64,000 nucleotides of DNA from Escherichia phage SP15. Position numbers and translations under genes: made by a program. The stretch lies in sequence record AP019559. One strand, 5' to 3'. Below the pieces are notes generated by a model, which was not told the origin of the DNA, searched no databases, and worked only from the letters and a program-made list of their open reading frames with translations. This document shows, piece after piece, positions 34,688-61,839 of the stretch (its first letter is position 1; every line of letters begins with the position of its first letter).

Positions 34688-34695
34688 TATATTAG

Positions 34696-34971: not shown

Positions 34972-35061
34972 TCGTTAACTCCTTCATCAATTTATACAAC
35001 TATTATATCAGAAATTTAAAGCAAAAGGCAAGTACATTTTTAAAAATTCTGTTTGGAGGAG

Positions 35062-35428: not shown

Positions 35429-35443
35429 CTTATTTCCTTAGTT

Positions 35444-35520
35444 TGGTAGGGGTGGTGGGATTCGAACCCACAAAACCTGAATTTTAAGTCCAGTACCTAT
35501 GCCAATTCGATTACACCCCC
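35444..35520 (-). tRNA. tRNA with anticodon TAA (Leu by anticodon) but class I architecture
   Basis: Hand fold: good acceptor and T-stem, loop CTTAAAA, 5-nt variable loop, discriminator A. Confidence 0.55.
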
Positions 35521-35527
35521 GTGTAGT

Positions 35528-35716
35528 TTAGTCAATTACTTTTGAGGCTTCAAGGTAGTCGATATAGTGTATGTTTTCTACCGTAATCATATAATCTGTC
35601 ACTTTATCCATAGCTTGGGCTTCAGAGGTAGCTCTGGCTAACCTATATCCTTTTTTATATTCATCCGGGTATTCTCTATCTTGGATAAACACAACATAAA
35701 CTATATATAGATCCAT
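35528..35716 (-). CDS. hypothetical protein
   Basis: 62 aa. Confidence 0.5.
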   Translation of the reverse strand: MDLYIVYVVFIQDREYPDEYKKGYRLARATSEAQAMDKVTDYMITVENIHYIDYLEASKVID

Positions 35717-35735
35717 TTGTGACCTCTATTTAATT

Positions 35736-35813
35736 TGGTGGCTCCCCGAGGATTCGAACCTACGTACCTTCCGGTTATGAGCCGGGTGCTCATACCATAT
35801 GAGCTTGAGAACC
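35736..35813 (-). tRNA. tRNA, anticodon CAT (third copy)
   Basis: Hand fold: perfect D-stem GCTC/GAGC, loop CTCATAA; weak T-stem. Confidence 0.5.
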
Positions 35814-35819
35814 AGAATT

Positions 35820-35908
35820 TGGCGGAAGAAGCGGGAATCGAACCCACAAGGCTATATTTCAAACCGACAGATTAGCAATCTGCTGCAATACCGTTATGCT
35901 ATTCTTCC
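35820..35908 (-). tRNA. tRNA-Ser (GCT), class II
   Basis: Hand fold: perfect acceptor GGAAGAA/TTCTTCC, loop TTGCTAA, long variable arm. Confidence 0.75.
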
Positions 35909-35929
35909 GAATTTATAAGATATATTATA

Positions 35930-36448
35930 TTAGAAATTTAGCTTCATAGCAAGAAAATTTTTCAAGTTTTCGGTAGACATCTCATCCACATCTACGGGAG
36001 AAACAAAGCCGTTTAATTTTCTAGCAAATTTTTCACCCGCAGGATCATTATCTCCGACAGCTACCAATTTAAAAGGTAGTAATTTCAGTTGCTTTAATAA
36101 CGCTTTTCCTGGAGAAGAACCCAACATTGCTAGGGCTGGATAACCAGCATTATGTAACGCAACTGCCTTAAATACAGATTCAGCAATCAATACTACTTTT
36201 TCATCTCCATTGAGAGTTTCTAGTCCCCATACACACTGGGTAGTAGAATAAGTAAAGTATTTAGCTTCAAAGGGGCACTTACCATGACCTTTTGGAGCAG
36301 AAGGATTATAAGTTTGATAGCCCCTCAACATCCCAGAGAAGTCATACAACGGGACTGTTAGCCATCCTTCCGGACTTAACCAGCAATGATATTTATCTGT
36401 ATCAAATCCTCTAGATAAGAGGTGCTGTGTTAGCTCATCAACATTCAT
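35930..36448 (-). CDS. TOPRIM-domain protein (small primase or nuclease-like)
   Basis: Track ORF 35930..36499 trimmed to the ATG at 36448 (AAGAGGAA RBS); conserved Glu in 'LIAESVF' and 'VGDNDPAGE' DxD motif. Confidence 0.5.
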   Translation of the reverse strand: MNVDELTQHLLSRGFDTDKYHCWLSPEGWLTVPLYDFSGMLRGYQTYNPSAPKGHGKCPFEAKYFTYSTTQCVWGLETLNGDEKVVLIAESVFKAVALHNAGYPALAMLGSSPGKALLKQLKLLPFKLVAVGDNDPAGEKFARKLNGFVSPVDVDEMSTENLKNFLAMKLNF

Positions 36449-36623
36449 ATTTGGTTCCTCTTTCAAATTTATAGATATATTATACAGAGAATTTAGCATT
36501 CAAGCAATCAAATTTTTTAACTTTTTAGAGGAAAATCATAGGGCACTTAAGGATAGCAGATAAGTGGTGAGGACCAAAATTTGTGACCCCACTAAAAATT
36601 CAGGGGCAATTTTTAAAGACCCC

Positions 36624-36652
36624 TTGACATTTTCGCTGGGGTAGTGTAAAGT
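36624..36652 (+). promoter_or_regulatory. sigma70-type promoter for the plus-strand three-gene module
   Basis: Consensus TTGACA, 17-nt spacer, TAAAGT. Confidence 0.55.
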
Positions 36653-36713
36653 ATATGTTATGGATGAGTGATCAAAGAGACACACATTTTCTATATACTA
36701 GGAGGTGTCAAAA

Positions 36714-37697
36714 ATGACAGAAGAAGTAGCTAAGAGTCCTGAGACCGTCGCTAGCGTTGCAGCAGAACTGCACCGTCACGAGGAATCAGATAAGAAAAAG
36801 TGGGAGAAGGTCAGAGCCTACGAAGAAAAACATCGTGAACACGATGATGAAGAAGATGACGATGAACATTGTCATAAATATGGAAAACATAAAATGCAAG
36901 AACCAGTAAACGTATTTACTAGTGGCTTCCCTGGCCTACTGGGTGGTTACCCAGCAAACGCAGGTGCTTTCGGTGGTGAAGGTATGGGACTATTCGGAGC
37001 TATCCTAATCGGTGCTCTATTAACAGGCGGATTCGGTGGTTTCGGTGGATTCGGTGGACGTGGTGTAGTTGGTGATGGTACCGCAGTTGATGCAGTACTT
37101 CAGAACCAAGATACCGCTAGTATTCTAGCAGCTATTAACACTACTCGTACAGAAGCTAACCAGGGTACTGGAGCTGTTTTAAGCGCAGTTAACAATGGGT
37201 TTAGCCAGACATCCCAAAACCAGAGCCGTGATACTCAGTCTGTACTAACTACGATCTATGGTACAGGTGCTAATCTGTCTAATCAGATCTGTCAGGAAAC
37301 TCGCAACGTTATTCAGGGTCAGTTCGATCTTTCTCGCCAGATTGATCAATCTTTCGCAGCTAATCAGATAGCTCGTGCACAAGATAAGTTTGATTCTGCA
37401 CAGATCGCTTTCCAGCAGACTTTACAAACTAATAACCAGTTTGCCGCTGTTCAGGCTCAGATGTGTGCTAACCAGAACTCTCTGGAACGTCAGATCGCTG
37501 AATGTTGCTGTGAACTTCAGACTGCTATCGCTGGTGTAACTACTGCTCGTATTCAGGATGAGTTAGATGCATGTCGCCTACGTGAAGCAATCGCTGCGGG
37601 TAACGGTGCTAACGGTCAGGTAATTAATCAAATCGCTGTAAGTCTTGGTGCTATCACTCAGACTCTGGCTGGTCTGCAGGCTAAACTGCCGGCTTAA
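36714..37697 (+). CDS. glycine-zipper membrane protein with long Q/N/A/T-rich helical domain
   Basis: Track ORF starts at a GTG at 36705; ATG at 36714 has AGGAGG 8 nt upstream; 'GGFGGFGGFGG' hydrophobic Gly-rich segment; 'CCC' near the C-terminus; host-like codon usage. Confidence 0.6.
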   Translation: MTEEVAKSPETVASVAAELHRHEESDKKKWEKVRAYEEKHREHDDEEDDDEHCHKYGKHKMQEPVNVFTSGFPGLLGGYPANAGAFGGEGMGLFGAILIGALLTGGFGGFGGFGGRGVVGDGTAVDAVLQNQDTASILAAINTTRTEANQGTGAVLSAVNNGFSQTSQNQSRDTQSVLTTIYGTGANLSNQICQETRNVIQGQFDLSRQIDQSFAANQIARAQDKFDSAQIAFQQTLQTNNQFAAVQAQMCANQNSLERQIAECCCELQTAIAGVTTARIQDELDACRLREAIAAGNGANGQVINQIAVSLGAITQTLAGLQAKLPA

Positions 37698-37718
37698 TAT
37701 TAAGGGGAGGAGCCCATT

Positions 37719-38135
37719 ATGAGTAAATATGGTTTTGTAAATAACGGACTTAATCAAAGTATGGGCTCCCAGCAGCCCATTCCGGGTCTGGATAACCCCT
37801 ACTTACAACAATTGCAACAGCGTTTAGCAGAAGCGCAACAGATGCAACAACAACTCCAGCAAAACCCTGGAAGTGTGAGTCCTATGCAAATGATGCAGCA
37901 AATGAGCGGGCAGTCGCAAATGCCTCAACAAATGCAGCAACAGATGCCGCAGCAGCAAGTTCAGCAGCAAACCCAACAACCGCAGGTTTCTGCGGAAGGA
38001 CAGGCAGTACTAGCCCTTTTCGAAGACTTCACAAAGACAGAGGATGGGAAGCAGCTTGTATCACTTATGGGTAAGTTTAATAGCTTCTGCCAAAGCCAAG
38101 TTGCAAAAGCTCAAAATGGTGGTAATAACTCCTAA
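37719..38135 (+). CDS. Gln-rich low-complexity protein
   Basis: 138 aa with poly-Q/M stretch; RBS GGGGAGGAG. Confidence 0.55.
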   Translation: MSKYGFVNNGLNQSMGSQQPIPGLDNPYLQQLQQRLAEAQQMQQQLQQNPGSVSPMQMMQQMSGQSQMPQQMQQQMPQQQVQQQTQQPQVSAEGQAVLALFEDFTKTEDGKQLVSLMGKFNSFCQSQVAKAQNGGNNS

Positions 38136-38144
38136 GGAGAAATT

Positions 38145-38339
38145 ATGTGTTGCAGAAAACCTGTTTCGTGCTGCCCAATGCCTGTAGCACGTTGTTGCTC
38201 TCCAGCAATGTTTACACAAATACCGGCGTTCAATCCCTTTGCCTTTAAGCCTACTCTTATCCTGCCCCCTAGAGTAGATTTTCAGTCAAGATTGGCCTCC
38301 CGTATGGGTGGTTGCTGTACACCGAGAGTGTGGTTCTGA
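38145..38339 (+). CDS. Cys-doublet-rich small protein
   Basis: 64 aa with four CC doublets; RBS AAGGAGA. Confidence 0.5.
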   Translation: MCCRKPVSCCPMPVARCCSPAMFTQIPAFNPFAFKPTLILPPRVDFQSRLASRMGGCCTPRVWF

Positions 38340-38354
38340 AGAACCAAACAATAA

Positions 38355-38390
38355 AGCCCCTAGTCGAAAGACTTAGGGGCTTTTCTGTAT
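38355..38390 (+). terminator. Rho-independent terminator
   Basis: 11-bp stem with one bulge around a GAAA loop, followed by TTTTCTGTATTT. Confidence 0.65.
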
Positions 38391-38394
38391 TTAA

Positions 38395-38436
38395 GATAAA
38401 AGAAAAGCCCTGCGCTCTCCAGGGAACGCAGGGCTT
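38395..38436 (-). terminator. Rho-independent terminator for the SPFH gene
   Basis: 10-bp stem AAGCCCTGCG/CGCAGGGCTT; on the minus strand followed by TTTTCTTTT. Confidence 0.65.
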
Positions 38437-38459
38437 ACTTCAGATGTTACATGCGGATA

Positions 38460-39407
38460 TTATTTATTACGCATATCCATGATCATTTGACCATCGTAGC
38501 CAGTACCTACCACAGTCTGTGGTACACCACCTTGATATTTCTGAGCACGAATCATTTCGACTTCCAGTTGTTTCCAACGAATCATCTCAGGAGTAATGGT
38601 ACGTTGCAGTGCGGCGTTAGCTTCAGCTTCTTTCTTAGCTGCGTACAGTTTAGCATCTGCGTCACGTTCATTAGCGATAGCTTGGTTGTTGCGAGCTTCA
38701 CGATCTGCTTCTGCTTGTTTAACTTTTTGCTGTGCTTCCTGTTCAACACGAGCTAATTCAGCTTTAGCAGCATTAACCTGTTCTTCACGAACTTTGGTAT
38801 TCTGTACCTGTTCCATGATTACCGGTGGCAAAGTAATATCCTGAAGGAATACCTGCTTAACTGTGTAACCATATGGGCGTGCATACTCTTCAACTTCCTG
38901 TTGAATTGCAGTTTGCAATTGAGCCTGAATTTTAGCATCAAACAAATCTTGTGCTTTAGGTACAGACTTACCAAACTCACGAATAGTAGACAGTAATTTT
39001 TCAGTTACATATTTGTCTAACGCTTGATCCTGAGTACCTGCGTTAATACGGTTAATTGGTGCCTTAGAACCATCAAACTGCAACATAACAGTCAGGTCAA
39101 CAGTGGATTTAAACTTATCCTGGCTAGGAACCTGAAGTTTATCTAATTTTACAGCAATATCTTTTGTACTAAAAGTGTCGAAAGATGCAAATGGGTTTAC
39201 AAGATGGAAACCTGGTAATACTGGGTTAGGATCTACTTTACCCAGAAATGTTTGGGTTTTAACCGTACCATCAGAAACAATAGTATATGAATTAAAGGCT
39301 AGAATCAAGCCTGCTAAACCAACTACAGCACCAATACCCCAACGTTTAATAGTACGAATTACTTTCTGCTCAGAAGTCAGTTCTTTCATATTTTTAGTAT
39401 TAAACAT
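38460..39407 (-). CDS. SPFH/band-7 (stomatin/prohibitin/HflK-C-like) membrane protein
   Basis: N-terminal transmembrane helix, central SPFH-like region, C-terminal A/E/Q-rich coiled-coil; host-like codon usage. Confidence 0.7.
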   Translation of the reverse strand: MFNTKNMKELTSEQKVIRTIKRWGIGAVVGLAGLILAFNSYTIVSDGTVKTQTFLGKVDPNPVLPGFHLVNPFASFDTFSTKDIAVKLDKLQVPSQDKFKSTVDLTVMLQFDGSKAPINRINAGTQDQALDKYVTEKLLSTIREFGKSVPKAQDLFDAKIQAQLQTAIQQEVEEYARPYGYTVKQVFLQDITLPPVIMEQVQNTKVREEQVNAAKAELARVEQEAQQKVKQAEADREARNNQAIANERDADAKLYAAKKEAEANAALQRTITPEMIRWKQLEVEMIRAQKYQGGVPQTVVGTGYDGQMIMDMRNK

Positions 39408-39441
39408 ATATTTCCTTTGTTTTAGTTACAGTTAATAAAAT

Positions 39442-39516
39442 TGGCCGAGGTGACAGGATTCGAACCTGCATAAAGGAATTTAGAAGACTCCTGCCTCTCC
39501 CTTAGACTACACCCCG
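39442..39516 (-). tRNA. tRNA-Arg (TCT)
   Basis: Hand fold: acceptor CGGGGTG/CACCTCG, loop CTTCTAA, discriminator G; isolated from the main cluster. Confidence 0.7.
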
Positions 39517-52705: not shown

Positions 52706-54580
52706 ATGAATCGCAATGAAGAACTGAAGTATAAAGAAATGCAGGCGTTAATTAGAAACTGCAAAGAGATTATCGAAGGGTCAGCAGATGAAGAGCTGCT
52801 GTTTAATAATGCCAATAAACCCTCAGAACGTTTCCCTACACAAAGGGATATGCTTGCAGGTGAGTTGAGTAAGTATCTAATTCTAGAAGAAATGCCAATT
52901 CAGATTCGAAATGCTCATATGATTGGGGATATTCATTTCCATGATGCTGATTATGCTGCATTAGGCATGACTAACTGTTGCCTGGTAGCTCTGGAAGATA
53001 TGTTGAAGAATGGTATGAAGGTTGGTAATGCTGAAATTAGCACTCCAAACTCTATCACTACTGCGGCGGCTATCACTGCTCAGATTATCACTCAAGTTAG
53101 CTCCCATCAGTATGGCGGTACTTCTGTAGATCGCCTTGATGAAGTATTAGCCCCTTATGTTCGTAAATCCTATGACAAAAATCATGCGTTTGCAAAACGT
53201 TGGACTAAGGATGAAGCCAAAGCATCCGTAATGGCTACGGAGATGACTGAAAAAGAAGTCTATGATGCTTGTCAGGGTCTAGAGTATGAAATCAATACGA
53301 TGTTCAACTCTAATGGTCAGAGTCCGTTTATTACCTTTGGCTTTGGTCTGGGAACTTCTTGGGAGGCACGTCTAGTACAGAAAGCAATACTGAAAGTACG
53401 TATGGATGGTTTAGGTATCAATAAACGTACAGCTATCTTCCCGAAACTGGTATTTGTGCTTCGTGATGGCGTAAATATGAAACCAGGAGATGTTAATTAT
53501 GACATCAAGAAGTTAGCTATGAAATGTACTGCTGAACGTATGTATCCAGATTATATCAGCTATGACAAAGTTGTAGAAGTTACTGGAGACTACAAAGTTT
53601 CTATGGGCTGCCGTTCATTCCTAGCTGCTACAGAAGATGGTGAAACTGCCGGTCGTAATAACTTAGGTGTTGTTTCTGTAAACTTGCCTAGAATTGCTAT
53701 CGAAGCTGAAGGAAATATTGACCTATTCTTTGATTTGCTTGAGCTACGTGTGGATACAGCGTTAAAAGCATTGGAGTGGAGAGTTGATCGCTTAAAATAC
53801 ATTCAAGCTAAAGCTGCGCCCATCCTCTATATGTCAGGAGCCTTTGGACTGCGCTTGGAGCCTGATGAATATGTATTCGATCATTTCTATAACCGTGCTT
53901 CTGTATCTCTAGGGTATATTGGTTGCCATGAAATGCTACAGTTCATGTTTGGCAAAGATGTAGACACAATGTCCGAGACCTGCATCAAGTTTGTTCAGCG
54001 TGTATTGCAGTACATGCGGGATAGAGTAGATCAGAAGAAGGAAGAAACTAAGTTAGGTTATAGCCTGTATGCTACACCATCAGAGTCCCTGTGTGACCGT
54101 TTTTGTCGTCTAGACCGTGAATATTTCCCGGAGCATGAAGATATTCTGTCCAAAGGATACTACACTAACTCTCACCACCTTGATGTGGAACGTAAAGTTG
54201 CTCCTAACGTCAAATTTGATTATGAGTCTAACTTTACTCCTATTGCTTCTGGTGGGTGCATCTCCTATGTAGAATTACCGGATATGAAACGATTCCCAGA
54301 TGCACTGGAATGGGTTATTAATTATGCTGCTAGTAAGGTTCATTACTTCGGTATTAATACTCCAGTGGATTCTTGTGGTAAATGTGGATTCTTAGGTGAA
54401 ACAATAGCATCCGAAGATGGATTTAAGTGCCCTATCTGTGGTAATCATGACCCCGAAACTCTTGAAGTAACTCGCCGAGTTTGTGGGTATCTTGGAAATC
54501 CAGGTGCTCGTCCATTTAACCCCGGCAAACAGCACGAGGTGATGGGTAGAGTTAAGCATCAGGATATTCGAGCTAAGTAA
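52706..54580 (+). CDS. nrdD: anaerobic ribonucleoside-triphosphate reductase
   Basis: C-terminal 'CxxC...C' zinc ribbon and glycyl-radical motif 'RVCGYLGNPGARPFN'. Confidence 0.85.
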   Translation: MNRNEELKYKEMQALIRNCKEIIEGSADEELLFNNANKPSERFPTQRDMLAGELSKYLILEEMPIQIRNAHMIGDIHFHDADYAALGMTNCCLVALEDMLKNGMKVGNAEISTPNSITTAAAITAQIITQVSSHQYGGTSVDRLDEVLAPYVRKSYDKNHAFAKRWTKDEAKASVMATEMTEKEVYDACQGLEYEINTMFNSNGQSPFITFGFGLGTSWEARLVQKAILKVRMDGLGINKRTAIFPKLVFVLRDGVNMKPGDVNYDIKKLAMKCTAERMYPDYISYDKVVEVTGDYKVSMGCRSFLAATEDGETAGRNNLGVVSVNLPRIAIEAEGNIDLFFDLLELRVDTALKALEWRVDRLKYIQAKAAPILYMSGAFGLRLEPDEYVFDHFYNRASVSLGYIGCHEMLQFMFGKDVDTMSETCIKFVQRVLQYMRDRVDQKKEETKLGYSLYATPSESLCDRFCRLDREYFPEHEDILSKGYYTNSHHLDVERKVAPNVKFDYESNFTPIASGGCISYVELPDMKRFPDALEWVINYAASKVHYFGINTPVDSCGKCGFLGETIASEDGFKCPICGNHDPETLEVTRRVCGYLGNPGARPFNPGKQHEVMGRVKHQDIRAK

Positions 54581-54587
54581 GATAATC

Positions 54588-54625
54588 AGCCGGGTTGCTA
54601 GTCGACCTGGCTTTTATTTTATTTG
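54588..54625 (+). terminator. Rho-independent terminator after nrdD
   Basis: 8-bp stem AGCCGGGT/ACCTGGCT then TTTTATTTTATTT; abuts the next promoter. Confidence 0.55.
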
Positions 54626-54651
54626 CTTTCAGCCAAAAATTTATATATAAT
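54623..54651 (+). promoter_or_regulatory. T5 early promoter, P_N26-like
   Basis: TTGCTT, 17 nt, TATAAT, then ATAAATTTGAGAGGAG; near-duplicate of the 62066 promoter. Confidence 0.7.
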
Positions 54652-54679
54652 AGATTTATAAATTTGAGAGGAGAAAGAT

Positions 54680-55060
54680 ATGGAATTAAAGCCCTATATA
54701 GTTGAGTCTACGTGTGGTAGTTTCCATCTGGGCGTGGATGATATTGCTGAAGCTGTCTTTGCTGCCACAGGTGATTACTCGCATATAGAGGGTGTTGCAT
54801 ACCCTACCATTATTGGCGATTGGGTGGGAACAAATCTAGATGTATCGCCTTATAACCCATATTGCTTGTTTGATGAAGACAGAGATGAAGTAAAATGTAA
54901 TCTTGAATTTGTGTATAATAGAGTGTTAAAAGTATACCAACGTAGCCCCAATGGATACGAAGATATTACTTGGAGTATTAAACAGTATCTTAAAGATGTA
55001 TACTCTAGTTTTTCTGACGAAGACCTAGAAACAGTTGCAGTGGAGTTTAATAATGACTAA
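54680..55060 (+). CDS. hypothetical acidic protein
   Basis: 126 aa, first gene after the promoter. Confidence 0.5.
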   Translation: MELKPYIVESTCGSFHLGVDDIAEAVFAATGDYSHIEGVAYPTIIGDWVGTNLDVSPYNPYCLFDEDRDEVKCNLEFVYNRVLKVYQRSPNGYEDITWSIKQYLKDVYSSFSDEDLETVAVEFNND

Positions 55061-55259
55061 GAATGTAAAACATCTTAAATATCGCTTAATTTATAACGGA
55101 CGTATGGAAACAGAAGATCTGGCCCAGTTAGCTATTAATTCTAATGAGGTTACAGTGCGTGCGCTGGCAATTGAAAAGTTGCGTGCCTCTTATGAAAATC
55201 GTGTTATGGAACTAGAGGAGAAACTTTATGGCATTCTCGAAGCCGATGCTACCAGATAA
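55053..55259 (+). CDS. hypothetical protein
   Basis: Track ORF 55035..55259 trimmed to the ATG at 55053. Confidence 0.45.
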   Translation: MTKNVKHLKYRLIYNGRMETEDLAQLAINSNEVTVRALAIEKLRASYENRVMELEEKLYGILEADATR

Positions 55260-55449
55260 GGGTTTAAACGCCGCTTTGGAAAACGCATTAATGCAGCACT
55301 GGGAAACTGGCTATAAGGATGGTGTTGAATCCTGCGCTACTATGCTAGAAGTTATTGCTAATACCTTAATGGAGAAAGGCAATAAAGAATTAGCTGAGCT
55401 ATTAGACAGTATTGGGCAAAACTTCAGAGAACAGGTGAAAAATGCGTAG
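55228..55449 (+). CDS. hypothetical protein
   Basis: 73 aa; start may be the internal ATG at 55246. Confidence 0.45.
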   Translation: MAFSKPMLPDKGLNAALENALMQHWETGYKDGVESCATMLEVIANTLMEKGNKELAELLDSIGQNFREQVKNA

Positions 55450-56260
55450 ATTAATTATTATTAGCGGTGCAGGTTTGAGTGTTGAAAGTGGTGTACGAGC
55501 TTTTCGTACTGATACTGCTAGTGGTAAAGCATTGTGGGATGATTATGATCTAGAAGAAGTATGTAATATTCATGCCTTTCGTGGTAATTTTTATCATAAA
55601 ACCCATATGTTTTACAACAAGCGTCGTGAAGAGCTAAAAACTGTTGAACCTAATCTTGCTCATTTGCGTATTGGTGAGTGGTATAAACAATATCCAGGTC
55701 AAGTAGTAAACTTGACTACCAACGTTGATGACCTTATTGAGCGTGCTGGCGTTCCACATAGTGACATTCTGCACATTCATGGGTACTTAAAAGAGGTTGT
55801 TGTGGCTGATAGTCACAATAGTAGTAATAAACGAGTTATTGATGTAGGATACAATTCTATTGATCCAGATGACTATAAATGGGTTAAACCTAATGTAATC
55901 TTCTTTGGGGAGCATGCTCCAGCATATGCAGAAATGTACAATATTTTTGATGGTATTACCAATCAAGATATGATCATTGTGGTTGGTTGCTCTAACCAAG
56001 TAATTAACTTCTACTGGGAATTATTTCCTATTCTTAACCGTACTGCTGCCAAGCTAATGGTAGTTAACTACTATGATAGTGCCCTAGCGGCAGAACCAGG
56101 CTATCAAGGTATGACTCGTAGTGAGATGTACCAGCTGGAAGAACGCGGTATCCCTTACTGGAGTAAAGGGGCTGTAGATGCCTTCAGTGATCCTGATTTT
56201 ATTGCTCGTGTAGAAGCTCATCTAGAGGGTAGACCTTATGTGTCAGGAAGTAAGAAATAA
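55442..56260 (+). CDS. Sir2-family NAD-dependent deacetylase / ADP-ribosyltransferase-like protein
   Basis: 'ISGAGLSVESGVRAFR' (GAGxSxxxG...FR), 'TTNVDDLIERAG', 'HIHG' Sir2 blocks. Confidence 0.7.
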   Translation: MRRLIIISGAGLSVESGVRAFRTDTASGKALWDDYDLEEVCNIHAFRGNFYHKTHMFYNKRREELKTVEPNLAHLRIGEWYKQYPGQVVNLTTNVDDLIERAGVPHSDILHIHGYLKEVVVADSHNSSNKRVIDVGYNSIDPDDYKWVKPNVIFFGEHAPAYAEMYNIFDGITNQDMIIVVGCSNQVINFYWELFPILNRTAAKLMVVNYYDSALAAEPGYQGMTRSEMYQLEERGIPYWSKGAVDAFSDPDFIARVEAHLEGRPYVSGSKK

Positions 56261-56423
56261 TGAATGGGATATTTTCATAACTGAGTCTGGTACTTGGTGC
56301 TATAGATTTGCCTATAGGTTTCCTAGTGTAAGAAAACGGCTGGGGTACACATATAAAATTATCTACACTACAGATAATATATGGTTGTCCTCTGGAGATG
56401 AGGGGAAACAGATATGTCCATAG
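56238..56423 (+). CDS. hypothetical small protein, paralog pair member
   Basis: 61 aa; shares 'DIF..G.WCYR' with the next ORF. Confidence 0.4.
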   Translation: MCQEVRNNEWDIFITESGTWCYRFAYRFPSVRKRLGYTYKIIYTTDNIWLSSGDEGKQICP

Positions 56424-56596
56424 TTAAATCTGTGTATACACATCCCGATGATATATTTGTATGGGCGGATGGTAGTTGGTGCTATCGATGTGAGCTATGG
56501 GAAATGGACTATAAATCTGATGACTATGGTGTCATATATGTTGATACGGTTGAGTATGATACGTTCTTAGAAAGGGACAAAAATGGAAATAAGTAA
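56414..56596 (+). CDS. hypothetical small protein, paralog pair member
   Basis: 60 aa; 'DDIFVWADGSWCYRCELW'. Confidence 0.4.
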   Translation: MSIVKSVYTHPDDIFVWADGSWCYRCELWEMDYKSDDYGVIYVDTVEYDTFLERDKNGNK

Positions 56597-57089
56597 TACT
56601 CCAATTATTTTTCTAGACATTGATGGGGTGCTTAATTCGAGCATCTCCCACCATCATGCACCTGATGATGAAAAGATTTTCTTTGGAAGTGACTGGGTTT
56701 TTAAGCCACTTCTCAAGGCTTTTCAGGACTTTATTCGTCCTTCTCCAATAATGATTGTTGGGGTATCTTCATGGTTCTCTGTCAGGAATGAGATGGAGAA
56801 CGTTCAGATTATGACCGGATTAGATCTTATCGATCGTTTTCTTGGTACAACGGATTTTACTGGTGGTGGGCTATCTAGGGGTAATTCTGTTCTTCGCTTC
56901 GTTGAAAAGCATAAGCTCAAACATTGGTGTGTGCTGGATGACGCTGGTGCTATGATGTATCAGTATCCAACTGTTATAGTCAATGGTAGAATTGGAATAA
57001 ATCTTCAAGATTTAAGAGCTGTTAGCTATATGTTAGAATTTAGTCCAGATCTTGAAATGTGTAAAGCCCTACAACAATTTAAGGTGTAA
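56583..57089 (+). CDS. HAD-superfamily hydrolase
   Basis: Motif I 'IIFLDIDGVLN'. Confidence 0.55.
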   Translation: MEISNTPIIFLDIDGVLNSSISHHHAPDDEKIFFGSDWVFKPLLKAFQDFIRPSPIMIVGVSSWFSVRNEMENVQIMTGLDLIDRFLGTTDFTGGGLSRGNSVLRFVEKHKLKHWCVLDDAGAMMYQYPTVIVNGRIGINLQDLRAVSYMLEFSPDLEMCKALQQFKV

Positions 57090-57091
57090 AT

Positions 57092-57520
57092 ATGTTCAAT
57101 AATGTGTTCTCTAAAGAAGCTAACCCAATATTAGTTAATTTTTGGCGTACTCTTCCAGCCAACCTGTACAATGAGGCTATTAATGCTCTGAAAATATGGT
57201 GTGAGAATAATGAAATCTCCTTTGCTTTTAAAGGCGAGGTTGAAGAGGCTCCCTGTATTGGTTTAATTGTGCAGGTGGAGGATGGTCTTGAAGAGATTGT
57301 CGGCTGGAAAGAGTTGGATGAAATGGGCTTGGTTTTTGCGTTAAACTATAAGCTGTTTATGCCCAATAAACACCGTATTGTTGTTAACTATAAAACCAAT
57401 GAATCTCCTGGTTTTCAAGTTAATGAACGGTATGGTTGGTCTTACTCACCGGAAGAGGTAAATGATGGTATCCAGAAACTTCGTCGTTTTGGTTATCAAA
57501 TTCCGGGTTTAACTGCCTAA
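57092..57520 (+). CDS. hypothetical protein, tandem paralog A
   Basis: 142 aa; shares 'PCIG', 'MGL.ALN..LF.P', 'IPGL' with the next ORF. Confidence 0.5.
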   Translation: MFNNVFSKEANPILVNFWRTLPANLYNEAINALKIWCENNEISFAFKGEVEEAPCIGLIVQVEDGLEEIVGWKELDEMGLVFALNYKLFMPNKHRIVVNYKTNESPGFQVNERYGWSYSPEEVNDGIQKLRRFGYQIPGLTA

Positions 57521-57529
57521 GGAGGCACA

Positions 57530-57922
57530 ATGGAACAAGTATATTGGCGTCAGATCGACCCTAGTTTGGTGAAGCGTGCAGAGAAGCTGCTACAACGTTG
57601 GTTGGGGGTAAGACAAGCCTCCTTCACTTTTCCGGAGCAGCAAATAGACGATCCCTGTATTGGTGTTTTCCTATCAGGCTACGCTAGGGAATGGGAATTG
57701 GATTGGAATGAATTGTCTGCTATGGGTTTAATTGTTGCACTAAATTTCTCTTTGTTCCATCCACGTGGTTTGGCCATATGTCGTGTGCCTGAGGACGGTT
57801 GTTCGCCCCATCTTTTACAGGTGGAAGATGATATTTGGGAGTACACTCCAGATATTCTCAAAGAAGCCAAAGAACAATTAAACCGTGTTGGAATTTATAT
57901 TCCAGGCCTGAATGATGAATGA
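57530..57922 (+). CDS. hypothetical protein, tandem paralog B
   Basis: 130 aa; same motif set. Confidence 0.5.
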   Translation: MEQVYWRQIDPSLVKRAEKLLQRWLGVRQASFTFPEQQIDDPCIGVFLSGYAREWELDWNELSAMGLIVALNFSLFHPRGLAICRVPEDGCSPHLLQVEDDIWEYTPDILKEAKEQLNRVGIYIPGLNDE

Positions 57923-58061
57923 TTTTTATTGGTTGACCTCTATAATCCGGGCTATTAGTGCTCGGATTATTGCCTAATCTTTCCAGCTAATTGACAGCAT
58001 GAATAAATTGTCATTGACAAATTGAATAGATTATGTAATAATATGTGTATTGGAGGTAAAG

Positions 58062-58514
58062 ATGTCGCTCACACAACAAGAACTTTTAGATAATTTCCGA
58101 TATGAAGATGGAAAATTATTTAGAACCACAGGAAGAAATGCAGGCAAGGAATGTTGTGTTTCAACGGGAAATGGGTATTATCGTATTTCTCTAGGTAGTA
58201 AAACTATGCTCCGACACAGAGCCATCTTCTTAATGCATCATGGTTATCTCCCTGATTTAGTAGATCATGAGAATACTATAAAAGGTGATGATCGTATTGA
58301 AAATCTTAGAGAGCAGACAGTATCCGGTAATCTAAGAAATATCAAATATAAGAAAGGAATGCATGTTTACCCTTCTGGTAGTAAGAACTGGCAAGTAGTA
58401 TTTACTATTAACCGTAAACGTATAGTTAAAGGAACATATGACAACTATGAGGTTGCATGTTCTATGGCCAAGATGTTTAGAGGTCAATTATACGGTAGGG
58501 AATCAATCCAGTAA
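58062..58514 (+). CDS. HNH homing endonuclease
   Basis: Track ORF starts at a TTG at 58050; ATG at 58062 has GGAGGT upstream; 'VDHENTIKGDDRIENLRE'. Confidence 0.65.
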   Translation: MSLTQQELLDNFRYEDGKLFRTTGRNAGKECCVSTGNGYYRISLGSKTMLRHRAIFLMHHGYLPDLVDHENTIKGDDRIENLREQTVSGNLRNIKYKKGMHVYPSGSKNWQVVFTINRKRIVKGTYDNYEVACSMAKMFRGQLYGRESIQ

Positions 58515-58522
58515 AATTTCAT

Positions 58523-58552
58523 TTGCAAGGGAGTATTATTTTATAGTATAAT
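58523..58552 (+). promoter_or_regulatory. candidate sigma70-type promoter preceding a ~480-nt leader
   Basis: TTGCAA, 18-nt spacer, TATAAT. Confidence 0.4.
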
Positions 58553-59049
58553 ATTCCCATAAATGAGAGATATTAGTAAAAATTGATTTTGCTAATTTTT
58601 CTTGTTTACAATCCGCGATACGGAACAGTTAGGCTGCCCCATTAAGGGTTGTTTTAACTGTTACGTGTTAGTTTTTAAGCAAATAATTAATAGAATACTT
58701 AGCGATCTGCGTCCCGTAGGAACCCTGGTAAGGCCTCGAAGCAACCTAGATAGAGGTGGTTGTGAAGTGAGACGGGAGGAGTGAAAAACTCCGAGACGTG
58801 ATTCTGTAAGTTATATTGCATCTAGTATGAGCTAGTATATGAAGCATTAGGTGAGCAAATCTGGCTTAGCGGCCATCCTCAAGGATTTGTGCGGTATAGC
58901 AAAGCAGCAGCGCAGCGTGAAAGTGGAAGTTGCCACCCCACTTCAGTATTTGCGATTAATTTGTTGAGAAATTGACAGTAACAGTTGTTCTATTCTTTCT
59001 GAATAGTCCTAAAGAAAACTTATTTCATTTCCAACACAGGAGTATTGTT

Positions 59050-61839
59050 GTGTTTTCAATCCTACAAGGTCATGCAGGATTTCATCGCGATTTAGCCACA
59101 GGCAATTGGCGAGAAGTTAAGGCAGAAGATTATCTTTTTGCTAAAAGATTTTCCTCAAAGCATCCCGAAGGTAAACCAGCTTCAATGCCCTTCAAGTTTG
59201 ATGTAATTGATGAAGTTGATCCTCAAACCCTAGTAGAAATGCTTCCTCTTATGAGACGTTTAACGTCTGACCCTCATATCGTTGCGGTACGAGGTCGATG
59301 TCTTGCACCTAAAAATAATGTGCGACGTAAGAAGGGCAACTTTAATGTATCTAATCCAAGTCATATAATCGCAATGGATGTGGATGGTATTGTAGATACA
59401 GGAGGTTGTAACAAGTTTGATCTTGTTGGCATGGCGCGTCATATTATTAGGATGTTGAATAGTATTAGTGAGGATATGTTTCCTCTTGATGCAGGGTTTA
59501 TTGCTCATGCATCATCTTCGGCTGGCCTAAAACCAGGTATCCGAATGCACTTAATACTAGAATCTAATGTTAAAGTTACACAGGGTCAGATCAAGTTCTT
59601 ATTTACATCTATCAACGAAAGTAGTAGACAAAAGTATGGCTTTGATATTGCCGACTTAGCTTATTACTCTTCCGTACAGCTCCACTATTTTGCAGATCCT
59701 TTATTTACTGATGGTATAGTTGATCCGTTTAAAGCGGAGGGTGCTTCACGTCTGGTATTTGTTAAAGGCTCAAAAGTAAATTTACCTAATAATCTAGTTG
59801 ACTATGAAACAACTAGAGGAGAGTTTAAAGAGGAATTCTACTCTTTACTCGATCAAATTAAAGGTAAAAAAGCCGCCTCCGATAAAGTAGAGGAAACTAT
59901 CAGCGAACTAGAAGAAGCTGAGGATGGAGTGTATCTACGTATTATTCCTAAACTCTATCACAGGGCTTTAGAGGATGGTGTTGATTTTGCATGGCTAGAA
60001 AAAGAAATCCGCCCAGCCTTATCAGAGTATATTGCAACTAAAGATAATAGTCGTAATATTCAAGATTATTTTAACAACGGTAGAAAACAGGCTCTGAAAG
60101 CGTTTGTTAATAATTCTAAACGTGATATACCGGATGTTTTAAAAGGTATTCCACTTAAAAAGCTAGAAACTAACTCTCTAGAGACTGATAACTTCTTGAA
60201 ATTAAATACTGTACCACCAGAAGGTTATATGACTTTTGTAAAAGCAAGTCTAGGTACAGGTAAAACTACGGCGGTTGTGCGTTGGTTAGATTCAGGAGTT
60301 ATTAAGGGTAATTTCTTAGCAATTACCAATACTCGAGCACTGGTATCTTCAAATGCTAAGAAATTTAGTGCAGGACAATATGATAAGTCTGTAGATATGC
60401 TTAATTTTAAGCGTGGCGCTATTGACCGTATGTCCACAACTATACATTCTTTGCATAAGTTCAAGAGTTTTATTGGTCAAATCGATGCAATCTTTATCGA
60501 TGAATGTGACGCTGTAATGAATGACCTATTATTCGCCCCGGTTGTTAAACAACGTCGTGAATGTATTCAGGTTCTTCGGGATATTCTTGCAACTGCAAAA
60601 ATCATTATATTATCTGATGGTGATATTAGTGCTGAAACAATTGAAGCATATGGTTCTTTGATTGAGTTTGATAAACCGGTTGCATTTTATAATCATCACC
60701 GTAAGATGCTGTCAAAAGCTCATGCTTATGAGTTCCCTGATGAATCTAGTATTTGGGTTGCACTTCAGACCTCTCTAGAGATGGGTGAGAAATCTATTCT
60801 GGTATCTGATTGTGGGCCGGATGAGCTGAATGAGAAAGGTATGGCACTGCGTCGTAATACGGGTGCGTTAGTTAAGGAAATCCATTCAAACTCTACCTCA
60901 GATGTGGATATTAGACGTATTCTGGATTACACAACTAATGAACTAATTGATCAACAAATTGATTGTTTATTATGTAGTCCATCCGTAACGAGTGGTGTTG
61001 ACTTTAACTATTTTGATAACGTATTTGTTATTACTAGAACTAGTAATCAAGCGCCAAACATGCGTTTCCAAGCAATCAGGCGCGACCGTGGTGCTCAGAA
61101 TATCTATTATTTTATTGATAAATCCACTAGTGGATTCTCCGCAGGTTCTGAACAATATAATATTGATGAGGGTTGGCTGGAGTTAGCACAGCAATTATAC
61201 GCACGTCGCAGGGAGCTGGAATCTAGGAACTATACTAGTACTTTACGTTATTACTTACTTGATCAGGGTGCAACTATTGATATTTTCAGTGAAAGCTGGG
61301 GAACTATTGAAGGTGCTGGTAAAGAGTATACAGAAGAGCGAATCAAAGCTATTCTGCACTCAACTCCTGATTATTGTGCTCCACGTCATGCGGATGCGTA
61401 TGAAGCTAAACTACTTCTTGTTCGCTATTATCATCTGGAGTCTATTAAAGATGTAACCGTTGAGCATGTTGAACAATATATCAAAGATAAGCCGAATGAT
61501 CGAGCTGCATTCTTCCATAAGATGCATGAGATGTTCTGGGAAGATATTAAGAAGTGTTCAAATGTCACTATCAAACCTTTCATAGAAGCTCTGAAAGGTA
61601 AGAAGAAAGATTTCTTCCTTAAAACAGGTCAGAGTGCTAACCCAAAATATGCTAGAATGTATCTTGGTATGATGGGTATTGGTAAAGATATGAACACGGA
61701 GAATATCGTAGACTGGTACAGAACCTATTGTAAAATCGAGTGTATGCCAATTCCTTTCAAATTCATGACAGAGGAAGAACGTCAGATGCACGAGGAAGCA
61801 ATGTCAGAGCTAGGTGCTAGAAATGACAGTGAAGAATAA
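59050..61839 (+). CDS. primase-helicase-like protein (AEP-type primase/polymerase-like N-terminus fused to P-loop NTPase)
   Basis: Track ORF starts at 58972; GTG at 59050 has AGGAG 7 nt upstream; 'IIAMDVDG' DxD motif, Walker A 'GTGKTT', Walker B 'IFIDECD'. Confidence 0.55.
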   Translation: MFSILQGHAGFHRDLATGNWREVKAEDYLFAKRFSSKHPEGKPASMPFKFDVIDEVDPQTLVEMLPLMRRLTSDPHIVAVRGRCLAPKNNVRRKKGNFNVSNPSHIIAMDVDGIVDTGGCNKFDLVGMARHIIRMLNSISEDMFPLDAGFIAHASSSAGLKPGIRMHLILESNVKVTQGQIKFLFTSINESSRQKYGFDIADLAYYSSVQLHYFADPLFTDGIVDPFKAEGASRLVFVKGSKVNLPNNLVDYETTRGEFKEEFYSLLDQIKGKKAASDKVEETISELEEAEDGVYLRIIPKLYHRALEDGVDFAWLEKEIRPALSEYIATKDNSRNIQDYFNNGRKQALKAFVNNSKRDIPDVLKGIPLKKLETNSLETDNFLKLNTVPPEGYMTFVKASLGTGKTTAVVRWLDSGVIKGNFLAITNTRALVSSNAKKFSAGQYDKSVDMLNFKRGAIDRMSTTIHSLHKFKSFIGQIDAIFIDECDAVMNDLLFAPVVKQRRECIQVLRDILATAKIIILSDGDISAETIEAYGSLIEFDKPVAFYNHHRKMLSKAHAYEFPDESSIWVALQTSLEMGEKSILVSDCGPDELNEKGMALRRNTGALVKEIHSNSTSDVDIRRILDYTTNELIDQQIDCLLCSPSVTSGVDFNYFDNVFVITRTSNQAPNMRFQAIRRDRGAQNIYYFIDKSTSGFSAGSEQYNIDEGWLELAQQLYARRRELESRNYTSTLRYYLLDQGATIDIFSESWGTIEGAGKEYTEERIKAILHSTPDYCAPRHADAYEAKLLLVRYYHLESIKDVTVEHVEQYIKDKPNDRAAFFHKMHEMFWEDIKKCSNVTIKPFIEALKGKKKDFFLKTGQSANPKYARMYLGMMGIGKDMNTENIVDWYRTYCKIECMPIPFKFMTEEERQMHEEAMSELGARNDSEE

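What the first reader, a model, noticed from the sequence alone, without database searches (positions are those of the whole stretch)
55053..57922. Sir2-like NAD-dependent enzyme in a block of tandem paralogs and a HAD hydrolase
A plus-strand run from the P_N26-like promoter contains a Sir2-family protein (55442-56260), a HAD hydrolase (56583-57089) and two tandem paralog pairs (56238/56414 and 57092/57530). Sir2 domains in phage-host conflict can act as NAD-consuming or protein-modifying effectors, and tandem duplication suggests diversification under selection.
Basis: partly seen in the sequence, partly recalled or inferred. Interest (0 to 1): 0.6.

Follow-up and report, generated by a model that had tools for sequence, protein, structure and literature searches.

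The report
T5-type sirtuin–HAD early operon
This is the conserved early operon of T5-like phages, encoding an apparently active sirtuin, a small HAD phosphatase and several proteins of unknown function; it is already annotated, and an NAD-dependent RNA-repair role has been predicted in print but never tested.

Summary
The window is the left 64 kb of a Tequintavirus (T5-like phage). They are orthologs of T5 genes T5.101–T5.107. The transcription unit really starts about 430 nt earlier, at a P_N25-like promoter (54623–54651) and a further gene (54680–55060).

The Sir2 protein is a CobB-like sirtuin. All NAD-binding and catalytic residues are invariant, as is the class III Tyr-x-x-Arg pair, but the zinc-binding cysteines are missing. 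It matches no defence-type SIR2 model. The HAD protein belongs to HAD_SAK_2 and has an intact catalytic motif set. Both paralog pairs are real. The DUF7415 duplication is ancient, and every gene is under purifying selection (dN/dS ≤ 0.23), so "diversification under selection" is not supported.

The block is core content of Markadamsvirinae (about 436 of 439 records). The sirtuin gene itself is a mosaic, deeply diverged allele.

Iyer et al. 2022 already described this sirtuin–HAD neighbourhood and predicted Tpt1/KptA-like removal of RNA 2'-phosphates. I confirmed that 56–66 % identical sirtuins sit inside RNA ligase/cREC/kinase cassettes in other phages. However, T5-likes lack a ligase, and lysine deacylation remains a strong rival.

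Verdict: real, known, function untested; moderate interest.

The parts
54588..54612 (+). Intrinsic terminator of the upstream nrdD gene; marks the 5' boundary of the unit
   Evidence: 10-bp GC-rich stem followed by a T run. T5 annotates a terminator at the same place.
54623..54651 (+). Sigma-70 early promoter, P_N25-like (-35 TTGCTT, 17-nt spacer, -10 TATAAT)
   Evidence: Sequence read directly. Nearly identical to the annotated T5 promoter upstream of T5.100 and very similar to T5 P_N25, not to P_N26. The generic scan missed it because TTGCTT matches only 3 of 6 consensus bases.
54680..55060 (+). First gene of the operon, ortholog of T5.100 (126 aa, pI 4.1, function unknown, hypervariable)
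   Evidence: phrog_11748 at E 9e-73. Only 64-94 % identical among otherwise near-identical phages, with dS up to 2.1.
55053..55259 (+). Ortholog of T5.101 (68 aa, unknown function)
   Evidence: phrog_5236 at E 7.5e-46. 86-100 % identical in relatives.
55228..55449 (+). Small ORF (73 aa, unknown function), annotated in BB1 and 8sent1748 but not in T5
   Evidence: phrog_5827 at E 7e-31.
55442..56260 (+). Sirtuin (Sir2 family, CobB-like, lacks zinc cysteines), ortholog of T5.102
   Evidence: Pfam SIR2 at E 1e-25. AF2 pLDDT 91. Foldseek best hit is E. coli CobB 1s5p, E 1.8e-17, TM 0.85. Invariant G9 A10 G11 S13 F21 R22 Y58 R61 N94 D96 H113 G114 F155 E157 G182 S184 N209. 96 % identical to T5.
56238..56423 (+). 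Small paralog 1 (61 aa), ortholog of T5.103; a lineage-restricted duplicate
   Evidence: phrog_5116 at E 7e-24. Absent from phage 8sent1748 and from Epseptimavirus.
56414..56596 (+). Small paralog 2 (60 aa), ortholog of T5.104; the conserved member of the pair
   Evidence: phrog_5116 at E 2e-29. Orthologs follow Sir2 in Epseptimavirus and in Klebsiella T5-like phages.
56583..57089 (+). HAD-superfamily phosphatase, HAD_SAK_2 family, apparently capless; ortholog of T5.105
   Evidence: Pfam PF18143 at E 5e-20. Invariant D12-x-D14-G-V-L-N, S62 S63, T93-G-G-G-x-S-R99, D119 D120. 86-99 % identical across Markadamsvirinae.
57092..57520 (+). DUF7415 protein a (142 aa), ortholog of T5.106
   Evidence: Pfam PF24187 at E 3e-32; phrog_2502.
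57530..57922 (+). DUF7415 protein b (130 aa), ortholog of T5.107
57942..57970 (+). Hairpin (11-bp stem) ending the operon; probable terminator
   Evidence: Fold of -19.6 kcal/mol, z -2.4. T5 annotates a putative rho-independent terminator at the equivalent position. The next promoter-like site, at 58014-58042, serves the HNH gene.

Best explanation
Shown. The region is the early operon T5.100-T5.107 of a T5-like phage. It is transcribed by host sigma-70 RNA polymerase from a P_N25-like promoter, as nine tightly packed, mostly overlapping genes. Its sirtuin belongs to a phage-specific clade. The clade is structurally CobB-like, keeps every NAD-binding and catalytic residue, and has lost the zinc-binding cysteines. 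The HAD protein is a small HAD_SAK_2 phosphatase with an intact catalytic motif set.

Inferred. The operon most likely heals damaged RNA ends, above all the ends of tRNAs cut by host anticodon or other metal-independent nucleases. The sirtuin would use NAD+ as Tpt1/KptA does. A 2'-phosphate oxygen attacks C1'' of NAD+, releasing nicotinamide. The catalytic His then activates the ribose 2''-OH, which expels the phosphate as ADP-ribose 1''-2'' cyclic phosphate. This mirrors the two chemical steps of sirtuin deacylation. The HAD phosphatase would either remove terminal 2'/3'-phosphates or dephosphorylate the ADP-ribose-phosphate by-product. Because T5-likes encode no RNA ligase, sealing would have to rely on host enzymes. 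The DUF7415 and small proteins have no assignable role.
For: Identity and orthology.

Promoter, terminators and gene packing.

Active sirtuin.

Not defence-type.

HAD motifs and family.

Relatives of the HAD are occasionally fused to a calcineurin-like phosphoesterase or a Pol-beta nucleotidyltransferase, both polynucleotide-end enzymes.

Context of sirtuins 56-66 % identical to this one:
- In Vequintavirinae-type myoviruses the order is metallophosphoesterase - T4-type RNA ligase - cREC - P-loop kinase - Sir2 (JES2013; NDO71; metagenomic contigs).
- In jumbo phage fHe-Yen9-04 the order is 2H - Sir2 - Nudix+cREC.
- NAD salvage genes (NadR/PnuC or NadV/Prs) and NADAR lie nearby. This fits an NAD-consuming reaction that yields ADP-ribose derivatives.

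The phage carries 23 tRNA genes.

Published prediction of exactly this neighbourhood, typified by the T5-like phage SP15: PMC9503650, section 3.7.3.
Against: - No RNA ligase, cREC, polynucleotide kinase or 2H homolog is detectable in the window or in the T5 sequence fetched (record coordinates 1-50000 and 52000-113000).
- Related myoviruses keep the sirtuin without the RNA-repair genes.
- The sirtuin keeps features typical of lysine deacylases: the class III Tyr58/Arg61 pair, the FGE loop, and CobB as best fold match.
- The whole clade is acidic, pI 4.6-6.1, as are the HAD and DUF7415 proteins. That is unusual for RNA-binding enzymes.
- The 2H neighbour in the jumbo phage matches the anti-CBASS protein Acb1 best, so some of these neighbourhoods may be counter-defence islands.
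- HAD homologs in T4-like phages sit in varied, non-RNA-repair contexts.
- No experimental study was found.
Confidence: 0.4

Rival explanations
1. The sirtuin is a genuine CobB/SIRT5-like protein lysine deacylase (deacetylase or desuccinylase). It would be made early to reset acylation of host or phage proteins, for example RNA polymerase, metabolic enzymes or replication proteins. The HAD phosphatase and the other genes would be functionally unrelated neighbours.
For: - Best sequence and fold matches are E. coli CobB and SIRT5.
- The Tyr-x-x-Arg pair, which in CobB (Y92/R95) and SIRT5 recognises acidic acyl groups (established knowledge), is invariant.
- The FGE loop and the Val/Phe tunnel residues are conserved.
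- NCBIfam's nearest models are all protein deacylases.
- The sirtuin persists in phages that lack RNA-repair genes.
Against: - Only about 25 % identical to CobB, and far below every NCBIfam deacylase cut-off (93 bits against 320).
- The zinc-binding cysteines, which shape the peptide-binding small domain in canonical sirtuins, are missing in the whole clade.
- Repeated adjacency to RNA ligase, cREC, kinase or 2H genes in unrelated phage lineages is not explained.
- The host already has CobB.
Confidence: 0.3
2. The operon is a counter-defence or host-takeover module centred on NAD+/ADP-ribose chemistry. The sirtuin would ADP-ribosylate a host target, or otherwise consume or convert NAD-derived molecules. 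The HAD would process a phosphorylated nucleotide signal or product. The fast-changing small proteins would be inhibitors of host immunity.
For: - Early expression from a strong promoter.
- Homologous sirtuins lie among NAD reconstitution genes, NADAR, an Acb1-like 2H and Nudix-cREC.
- Mosaic, deeply diverged alleles of Sir2, of the first gene and of the small ORFs sit between highly conserved flanks.
- T5 lacks the ART-type ADP-ribosyltransferases that T4 uses (established knowledge).
Against: - No match to any PADLOC model, and no known anti-defence family hit for any gene in Pfam or PHROGs.
- dN/dS is well below 1.
- The sirtuin is not linked to a macro domain, as protein-ADP-ribosylating SirTM sirtuins are (PMC9503650).
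- The block is invariant core content rather than a variable accessory island.
Confidence: 0.15
3. The rear half of the block belongs to the neighbouring nucleotide-metabolism module. The HAD would be a (deoxy)nucleotide phosphatase. The DUF7415 proteins would be accessories of the anaerobic ribonucleotide reductase NrdD, which is encoded immediately upstream.
For: - The operon follows nrdD and lies beside phoH, nrdA/B, thy and frd.
- Stand-alone DUF7415 proteins lie between nrdD and nrdG in T4-like phages.
- A HAD homolog lies next to td/nrdA.1 in Aeromonas phage PX29.
- T5-likes have NrdD but no NrdG homolog.
Against: - A terminator and a separate promoter divide nrdD from the operon.
- The T4-like cases share synteny and so count as one event.
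- In PX29 the DUF7415 gene follows RNA ligase 1, not nrdD.
- The HAD belongs to a family of about 150-200 aa proteins, and capless HADs usually act on macromolecular ends (the cap-type inference is established HAD classification).
Confidence: 0.1

Closest known systems
Phage T5 genes T5.100-T5.107 (Sir2-like protein YP_006930 and neighbours)
   Same: Same gene order, promoter and terminator positions. Proteins are 94-100 % identical, except orfB at 89 %.
   Different: This phage has an extra small ORF (55228-55449) that T5 does not annotate. It also has an HNH homing endonuclease inserted downstream of the operon.
'Type 3' phage sirtuin neighbourhood of Iyer, Burroughs, Anantharaman and Aravind 2022 (Viruses 14:1977; typified by Escherichia phage SP15)
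   Same: [quoted passage not shown] SP15 is a T5-like phage that carries the same DUF7415 gene.
   Different: Nothing structural; this is the same system. Their functional assignment (KptA-like RNA 2'-phosphate removal) is a prediction from context only.
E. coli CobB and human SIRT5 (class III sirtuin deacylases)
   Same: Same fold (TM 0.85 to CobB 1s5p), the GAGxS, TxNxD, HG and FGE motifs, and the Tyr-x-x-Arg pair.
   Different: About 25 % identity. The zinc cysteines (CobB C155/C174/C176/C177) are absent. Below NCBIfam family cut-offs. About 60 extra C-terminal residues.
Tpt1/KptA RNA 2'-phosphotransferase
   Same: Proposed functional analogue: NAD+-dependent, two-step chemistry ending in an ADP-ribose derivative. 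The genomic company (RNA ligase, kinase, cyclic phosphodiesterase-like cREC/2H) parallels the fungal Trl1 + Tpt1 pathway (PMC9503650).
   Different: Unrelated fold (Rossmann sirtuin against ADP-ribosyltransferase). No biochemical evidence.
Vequintavirinae (rV5-like) RNA-repair cassette containing a sirtuin
   Same: The sirtuin is 56-66 % identical to the one here.
   Different: There it is flanked by metallophosphoesterase, T4-type RNA ligase, cREC, kinase and ATP-dependent DNA ligase. None of these has a homolog in the window or in the fetched T5 sequence, and that cassette has no HAD_SAK_2 or DUF7415.
Defence-associated SIR2 NADases (ThsA, DSR1/2, SIR2-HerA, SIR2-pAgo)
   Same: Same superfamily; both consume NAD+.
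   Different: No PADLOC model matches, there is no sensor or partner domain, and it is encoded by the phage rather than the host.

Membership tests
Sirtuin / SIR2 superfamily (Pfam PF02146) | Profile match above the curated cut-off | tested here: met
   91.1 bits against a cut-off of 24, E 1.1e-25, residues 9-187.
Sirtuin / SIR2 superfamily (Pfam PF02146) | NAD-binding Rossmann motifs (GAGxS...SG...FR; GxS; distal Asn) | tested here: met
   G9 A10 G11 S13 S16 G17 F21 R22 G182 S184 N209 are invariant in 63 clade members. They align to the CobB equivalents.
Sirtuin / SIR2 superfamily (Pfam PF02146) | Catalytic His (HG motif) and the TxNxD Asn/Asp | tested here: met
   H113 G114, T93 N94 D96 are invariant. 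H113 aligns with CobB H147.
Sirtuin / SIR2 superfamily (Pfam PF02146) | Cys4 zinc-ribbon in the small domain | tested here: not met
   The positions of CobB C155/C174/C176/C177 are Val or deleted. No conserved Cys lies between residues 115 and 148 in the clade. The model still shows a three-stranded sheet there.
Sirtuin / SIR2 superfamily (Pfam PF02146) | Sirtuin fold | tested here: met
   AF2 pLDDT 91. Foldseek top 50 hits are all sirtuins; best is CobB, E 1.8e-17, TM 0.85.
Sirtuin / SIR2 superfamily (Pfam PF02146) | NAD-dependent deacylase or ADP-ribosyltransferase activity | not testable with these tools
   Needs biochemistry.
Class III sirtuins (CobB/SIRT5 deacylases) | Tyr-x-x-Arg acyl-carboxylate recognition pair | tested here: met
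   Y58 and R61 are invariant and align to CobB Y92/R95.
Class III sirtuins (CobB/SIRT5 deacylases) | Score above the NCBIfam CobB / deacylase family cut-offs | tested here: not met
   Best hits are 103 bits against 243 (NF001753) and 93 against 320 (NF040867).
Defence-associated SIR2 NADases | Match to a PADLOC SIR2 model | tested here: not met
   No family at E <= 0.01 for any of the nine proteins.
Defence-associated SIR2 NADases | Fused or adjacent sensor/partner (SLOG, HerA, pAgo, TIR, DSR extensions) | tested here: not met
   Single-domain 272-aa protein. The neighbours are HAD_SAK_2, DUF7415 and small unknown proteins.
Phage sirtuin RNA-repair neighbourhoods (Iyer et al. 2022, type 3) | Sirtuin of the proteobacterial-phage clade | tested here: met
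   50-68 % identical to sirtuins of rV5-like, Mydovirus, phi92-like and T5-like phages.
Phage sirtuin RNA-repair neighbourhoods (Iyer et al. 2022, type 3) | SAK-like HAD phosphatase in the conserved neighbourhood | tested here: met
   HAD_SAK_2 lies two small genes downstream in the same operon. It is conserved in about 436 Markadamsvirinae records.
Phage sirtuin RNA-repair neighbourhoods (Iyer et al. 2022, type 3) | An RNA-sealing or 5'-kinase partner in the same genome (needed for a self-contained repair pathway) | tested here: not met
   tblastn with the rV5-type RNA ligase, cREC, kinase and phosphoesterase finds nothing at E <= 1 in the window or in the T5 sequence fetched (record coordinates 1-50000 and 52000-113000). 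The T5 annotation lists only an NAD-dependent DNA ligase.
Phage sirtuin RNA-repair neighbourhoods (Iyer et al. 2022, type 3) | RNA 2'-phosphate removal with NAD+ | not testable with these tools
   A prediction only; no experimental paper was found.
Tpt1/KptA RNA 2'-phosphotransferases | ADP-ribosyltransferase-type fold and family profile | tested here: not met
   The protein is a Rossmann-fold sirtuin. No Pfam hit other than SIR2. It can only be a functional analogue, not a member.
HAD superfamily, HAD_SAK_2 (PF18143) | Profile match above the cut-off | tested here: met
   72.7 bits against 27.5, covering model positions 1-138 of 139.
HAD superfamily, HAD_SAK_2 (PF18143) | Catalytic motifs I-IV (DxD nucleophile/acid, Ser/Thr, Lys/Arg, DD) | tested here: met
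   D12/D14, S62/S63, R99 and D119/D120 are invariant from T5-like to T4-like homologs at about 30 % identity.
HAD superfamily, HAD_SAK_2 (PF18143) | Action on polynucleotide terminal phosphates | not testable with these tools
   Indirect only. There is no cap-sized insert in 168 aa. Relatives are fused to a metallophosphoesterase or a Pol-beta nucleotidyltransferase. No solved relative is detectable by sequence.
DUF7415 (PF24187) | Profile match above the cut-off in both tandem genes | tested here: met
   110.9 and 108.7 bits against 27. W59, N72 and Y105 are invariant across both paralogs and the short stand-alone relatives.

The most novel reading that the evidence does not exclude
The phage sirtuin is a nucleic-acid-directed sirtuin: a non-homologous replacement of Tpt1/KptA that strips 2'-phosphates from cleaved tRNA/RNA using NAD+. 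It would work with the HAD phosphatase, and possibly with the uncharacterised DUF7415 and small proteins. That would give T5-like phages a ligase-independent or host-ligase-dependent tRNA-healing route against anticodon-nuclease immunity.
Probability: 0.3. Interest if true: 0.75.

Novelty: already known. Interest (0 to 1): 0.35.

Why it matters
T5 is a model phage whose tRNA genes are already known to counter tRNA-cleaving defences. A conserved, early, NAD-dependent enzyme pair with no tested function is therefore a concrete experimental target.

If the sirtuin removes RNA 2'-phosphates, it would be a sirtuin acting on nucleic acid and an analogue of Tpt1, and it would add an RNA-healing layer to phage counter-defence. 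If it is a deacylase, it would be a rare case of a virus rewriting the host acylome.

Either way the genes and the hypothesis are already in the literature. The value lies in testing, not in discovery.

Tried and rejected
1. Defence-type SIR2 NADase: rejected, no PADLOC hit.
2. Positive or diversifying selection on the paralogs or on Sir2: rejected. Nei-Gojobori dN/dS is 0.00-0.23 for all genes against five relatives. The strong divergence of Sir2 comes with near-saturated dS, which indicates old mosaic alleles.
3. Internal duplication within DUF7415 proteins, suggested by two Pfam stretches: not supported by hhalign of the two halves, probability 18 %.
5. Sequence relatives of the HAD or DUF7415 among solved structures: none.
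6. RNA ligase, cREC, kinase, NAD salvage (NadR, PnuC, NadV, Prs) and NrdG homologs in the window or in the fetched T5 sequence: none.
7. Structured RNA in 54400-59200: no Rfam match at E <= 1.
8. Experimental literature on the T5 sirtuin or on T5.100-T5.106: nothing found. The Burroughs and Aravind 2016 paper that defines the SAK HAD is not held in the library.
9. A structure prediction for the HAD protein could not be run.

Full report
**What the window is.** The 4-kb stretch around the finding matches 447 phage records, best to Escherichia phage BB1 (93 % over its full length). All close matches are Tequintavirus or other Markadamsvirinae. The window starts at the left end of a T5-type genome: the dmp gene lies at 124-858, exactly as in T5. 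It contains 23 tRNA genes at 28.5-39.5 kb. The finding lies between the anaerobic ribonucleotide reductase gene nrdD (52706-54580) and an HNH homing endonuclease plus the 'replication origin binding protein' gene.

**Observation check.**
- Pfam assigns 55442-56260 to SIR2 (E 1.1e-25), 56583-57089 to HAD_SAK_2 (E 5.1e-20), and both 57092-57520 and 57530-57922 to DUF7415 (E about 1e-32).
- The DUF7415 pair is 32 % identical over 124 residues (E 7e-20).
- By BLAST the 61- and 60-residue proteins share only a 13-residue motif. Both match phrog_5116 strongly (E 7e-24 and 2e-29), so they are paralogs.
- The genes overlap by 8-32 nt or are 2-9 nt apart, and each has a Shine-Dalgarno-like sequence.

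The unit is larger than stated. After the nrdD terminator (54588-54612) there is a promoter, TTGCTT-17 nt-TATAAT, at 54623-54651. It is nearly identical to the annotated T5 promoter upstream of T5.100 and very like P_N25, not P_N26. It drives 54680-55060 (T5.100 ortholog), then 55053-55259 (T5.101), then 55228-55449, and only then the sirtuin. The operon ends at an 11-bp hairpin at 57942-57970, where T5 annotates a terminator. Gene by gene the proteins are 89-100 % identical to T5.100-T5.107.

**The sirtuin.**
- The closest solved protein by sequence is E. coli CobB (E 1.6e-17).
- An AlphaFold model built on 63 clade members is confident (pLDDT 91, pTM 0.89).
- Its best structural matches are CobB (E 1.8e-17, TM 0.85 on the target), archaeal Sir2-Af and SIRT5.
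- Invariant residues in the clade cover the NAD-binding motifs (G9 A10 G11 S13 S16 G17 F21 R22, G182 S184, N209). They also cover T93 N94 D96, the catalytic H113-G114, the FGE loop (F154 F155 E157), and Y58/R61.
- Y58/R61 align with CobB Y92/R95, and H113 aligns with CobB H147. From established knowledge, Y92/R95 are the residues class III sirtuins use to bind acidic acyl groups.
- The four CobB zinc cysteines have no counterpart (Val or deletions), and the clade has no conserved Cys in that segment.
- No PADLOC defence model matches, and NCBIfam deacylase models are hit far below their cut-offs.
- The whole clade is acidic, pI 4.6-6.1.

In summary it is an active-looking, CobB-like sirtuin that lacks the zinc cysteines and is specific to phages.

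**The HAD protein.** It covers the whole HAD_SAK_2 model. An alignment with about 30 % identical homologs from T4-like Aeromonas and Proteus phages keeps D12-x-D14-G-V-L-N, S62-S63, T93-G-G-G-x-S-R99 and D119-D120 invariant, so the catalytic set is intact. At 168 residues there is no room for a cap domain. By established HAD classification this is typical of enzymes acting on macromolecular ends (inference). No solved structure is detectable by sequence. An exhaustive HMMER search finds 137 cluster representatives, almost all stand-alone proteins of 150-200 residues. The few longer ones carry a calcineurin-like phosphoesterase or a Pol-beta nucleotidyltransferase.

**Distribution and evolution.**
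- A 400-residue segment of the replication protein is at least 80 % identical in 439 records.
- The HAD is at least 80 % identical in 436 records, and DUF7415b at least 60 % in 436.
- The block is therefore core content of Markadamsvirinae.
- Klebsiella T5-like phages keep nrdD - Sir2 - small protein - DUF7415a - DUF7415b but lack the HAD.
- Between this phage and two Epseptimaviruses, NrdD is 97-98 % identical, the HAD 86-90 %, the replication protein 91 %, and the DUF7415 proteins 72-73 %.
- The sirtuin, however, is only 60-65 % identical. That is as distant as it is from sirtuins of unrelated myoviruses, 57-68 %.
- dN/dS is 0.00-0.23 for every gene. The sirtuin's high dN comes with near-saturated dS.

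This pattern is mosaic exchange of old alleles under purifying selection, not diversifying selection. The DUF7415 duplication predates the split from the Klebsiella phages.

**Context of the sirtuin elsewhere.** The protein has relatives in 1009 phage records.
- In Vequintavirinae-type myoviruses, sirtuins 56-66 % identical to this one sit in the order metallophosphoesterase, T4-type RNA ligase, cREC, P-loop kinase, Sir2, ATP-dependent DNA ligase.
- Related contigs keep Sir2, DNA ligase and MazG but lack the RNA-repair genes.
- In the jumbo phage fHe-Yen9-04 the order is a 2H protein, Sir2, then a Nudix-cREC fusion. The 2H protein scores best as the anti-CBASS protein Acb1.
- NAD salvage genes (NadR/PnuC, NadV/Prs, NMNAT) and NADAR are frequent neighbours.
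- The window and the T5 sequence fetched (record coordinates 1-50000 and 52000-113000) contain none of these partners. T5 does have an NAD-dependent DNA ligase.

**Literature.** Iyer, Burroughs, Anantharaman and Aravind (Viruses 2022, PMC9503650, section 3.7.3) describe a distinct phage sirtuin clade in three neighbourhood types. [quoted passage not shown] They propose that the sirtuin acts like KptA to remove 2'-phosphates from RNA ends. SP15 carries the same DUF7415 gene on a 111-kb contig, so it is the same operon. I found no experimental work on the T5 sirtuin or its neighbours.

**Mechanism.**
- *Shown:* an early sigma-70 operon, an active-type sirtuin, an intact HAD phosphatase, and core conservation.
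- *Inferred, and my preferred reading at about 0.4:* NAD-dependent healing of nuclease-damaged RNA ends. The chemistry maps well. In Tpt1 a phosphate oxygen attacks NAD+ C1'' and the ribose 2''-OH then displaces the phosphate. In sirtuins an acyl oxygen does the first step, and the His-activated 2'-OH does the second.
- *Main weaknesses:* T5-likes lack any ligase, kinase or cyclic phosphodiesterase. The proteins are acidic. Deacylase hallmarks are retained. The sirtuin persists in phages without RNA-repair genes.
- *Rivals:* lysine deacylation (about 0.3) is the main rival. An NAD/ADP-ribose-centred counter-defence role (about 0.15) and a nucleotide-metabolism role for the rear genes (about 0.1) are not excluded.

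**Verdict.** The selection-driven reading of the paralogs is not supported. The system is already annotated in T5 and already discussed in the literature. It remains biochemically untested, which gives it moderate interest (0.35). Novelty: already known.

Noticed in passing
window 55442-56260 compared with loci L007 and L018: The sirtuin gene is a mosaic island. It is 60-65 % identical to its positional orthologs in Epseptimavirus, while the flanking nrdD (97-98 %), HAD (86-90 %) and replication gene (91 %) are conserved. It is as close to myovirus sirtuins (57-68 %) as to those orthologs. dS is near saturation and dN/dS is about 0.17-0.18.
   Followed up: partly
window 54680-55060: The first gene of the operon (T5.100 ortholog, acidic, pI 4.1, no family annotation) is hypervariable. 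It is 64-94 % identical among phages whose neighbouring genes are 97-100 % identical, with dS up to 2.1.
   Followed up: partly
window 56583-57089; T5 record T5.105 (L004 5589-6095): The HAD phosphatase is widely mislabelled 'Sir2 (NAD-dependent deacetylase)' in RefSeq and PHROG-based annotations. The cause is that phrog_18062, which carries that name, matches the C-terminal half of the HAD (E 1.7e-57). Many records therefore list two 'Sir2' genes.
   Followed up: yes
L009 3980-4213; L020 5001-5252; L021 929-1195; L008 8296-8535: Stand-alone DUF7415 proteins of about 80 residues lie between nrdD and nrdG in T4-like phages. In Aeromonas phage PX29 the homolog lies directly after RNA ligase 1. 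In T5-likes the DUF7415 genes are 2.5 kb downstream of nrdD. This may be a conserved linkage to nrdD.
   Followed up: partly
window 52706-54580 and the fetched T5 sequence (L003, L004, L011): T5-like phages encode the anaerobic reductase NrdD, but no NrdG activase homolog is detectable by tblastn, so they presumably depend on the host activase.
   Followed up: partly
window 58050-58514: An HNH homing endonuclease (HNH_3, phrog_99) with its own promoter-like site (58014-58042) is inserted between the operon and the replication gene. It is present in BB1, AKFV33 and 8sent1748 but absent at this position in T5.
   Followed up: partly
window 58515-59050: A non-coding leader of roughly 450-530 nt lies upstream of the replication-origin-binding-protein gene. 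It has two promoter-like sites (58523-58552 and 58583-58612) and no Rfam match. T5 has a comparable untranslated gap.
   Followed up: no
L022 3842-4288 (Yersinia phage fHe-Yen9-04 g102): The gene annotated 'RNA ligase', which lies two genes upstream of the jumbo-phage sirtuin, is a 2H protein. Its best Pfam match is the anti-CBASS protein Acb1 (E 2.6e-17). Some sirtuin neighbourhoods may therefore be counter-defence islands rather than RNA-repair cassettes.
   Followed up: no
L014 496-2441; L017 738-3498; L019 1-1203; L022 1-2417: NAD reconstitution genes (NadR+PnuC = NARP3-type; NadV/NAPRTase + Prs; NMNAT) lie within about 5 kb of the sirtuin in several myovirus and jumbo-phage lineages. The window and the fetched T5 sequence have none.
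   Followed up: partly
window 28525-39516: There is a cluster of 23 tRNA genes on the minus strand, as in T5. This is relevant background for any RNA-repair hypothesis.
   Followed up: no
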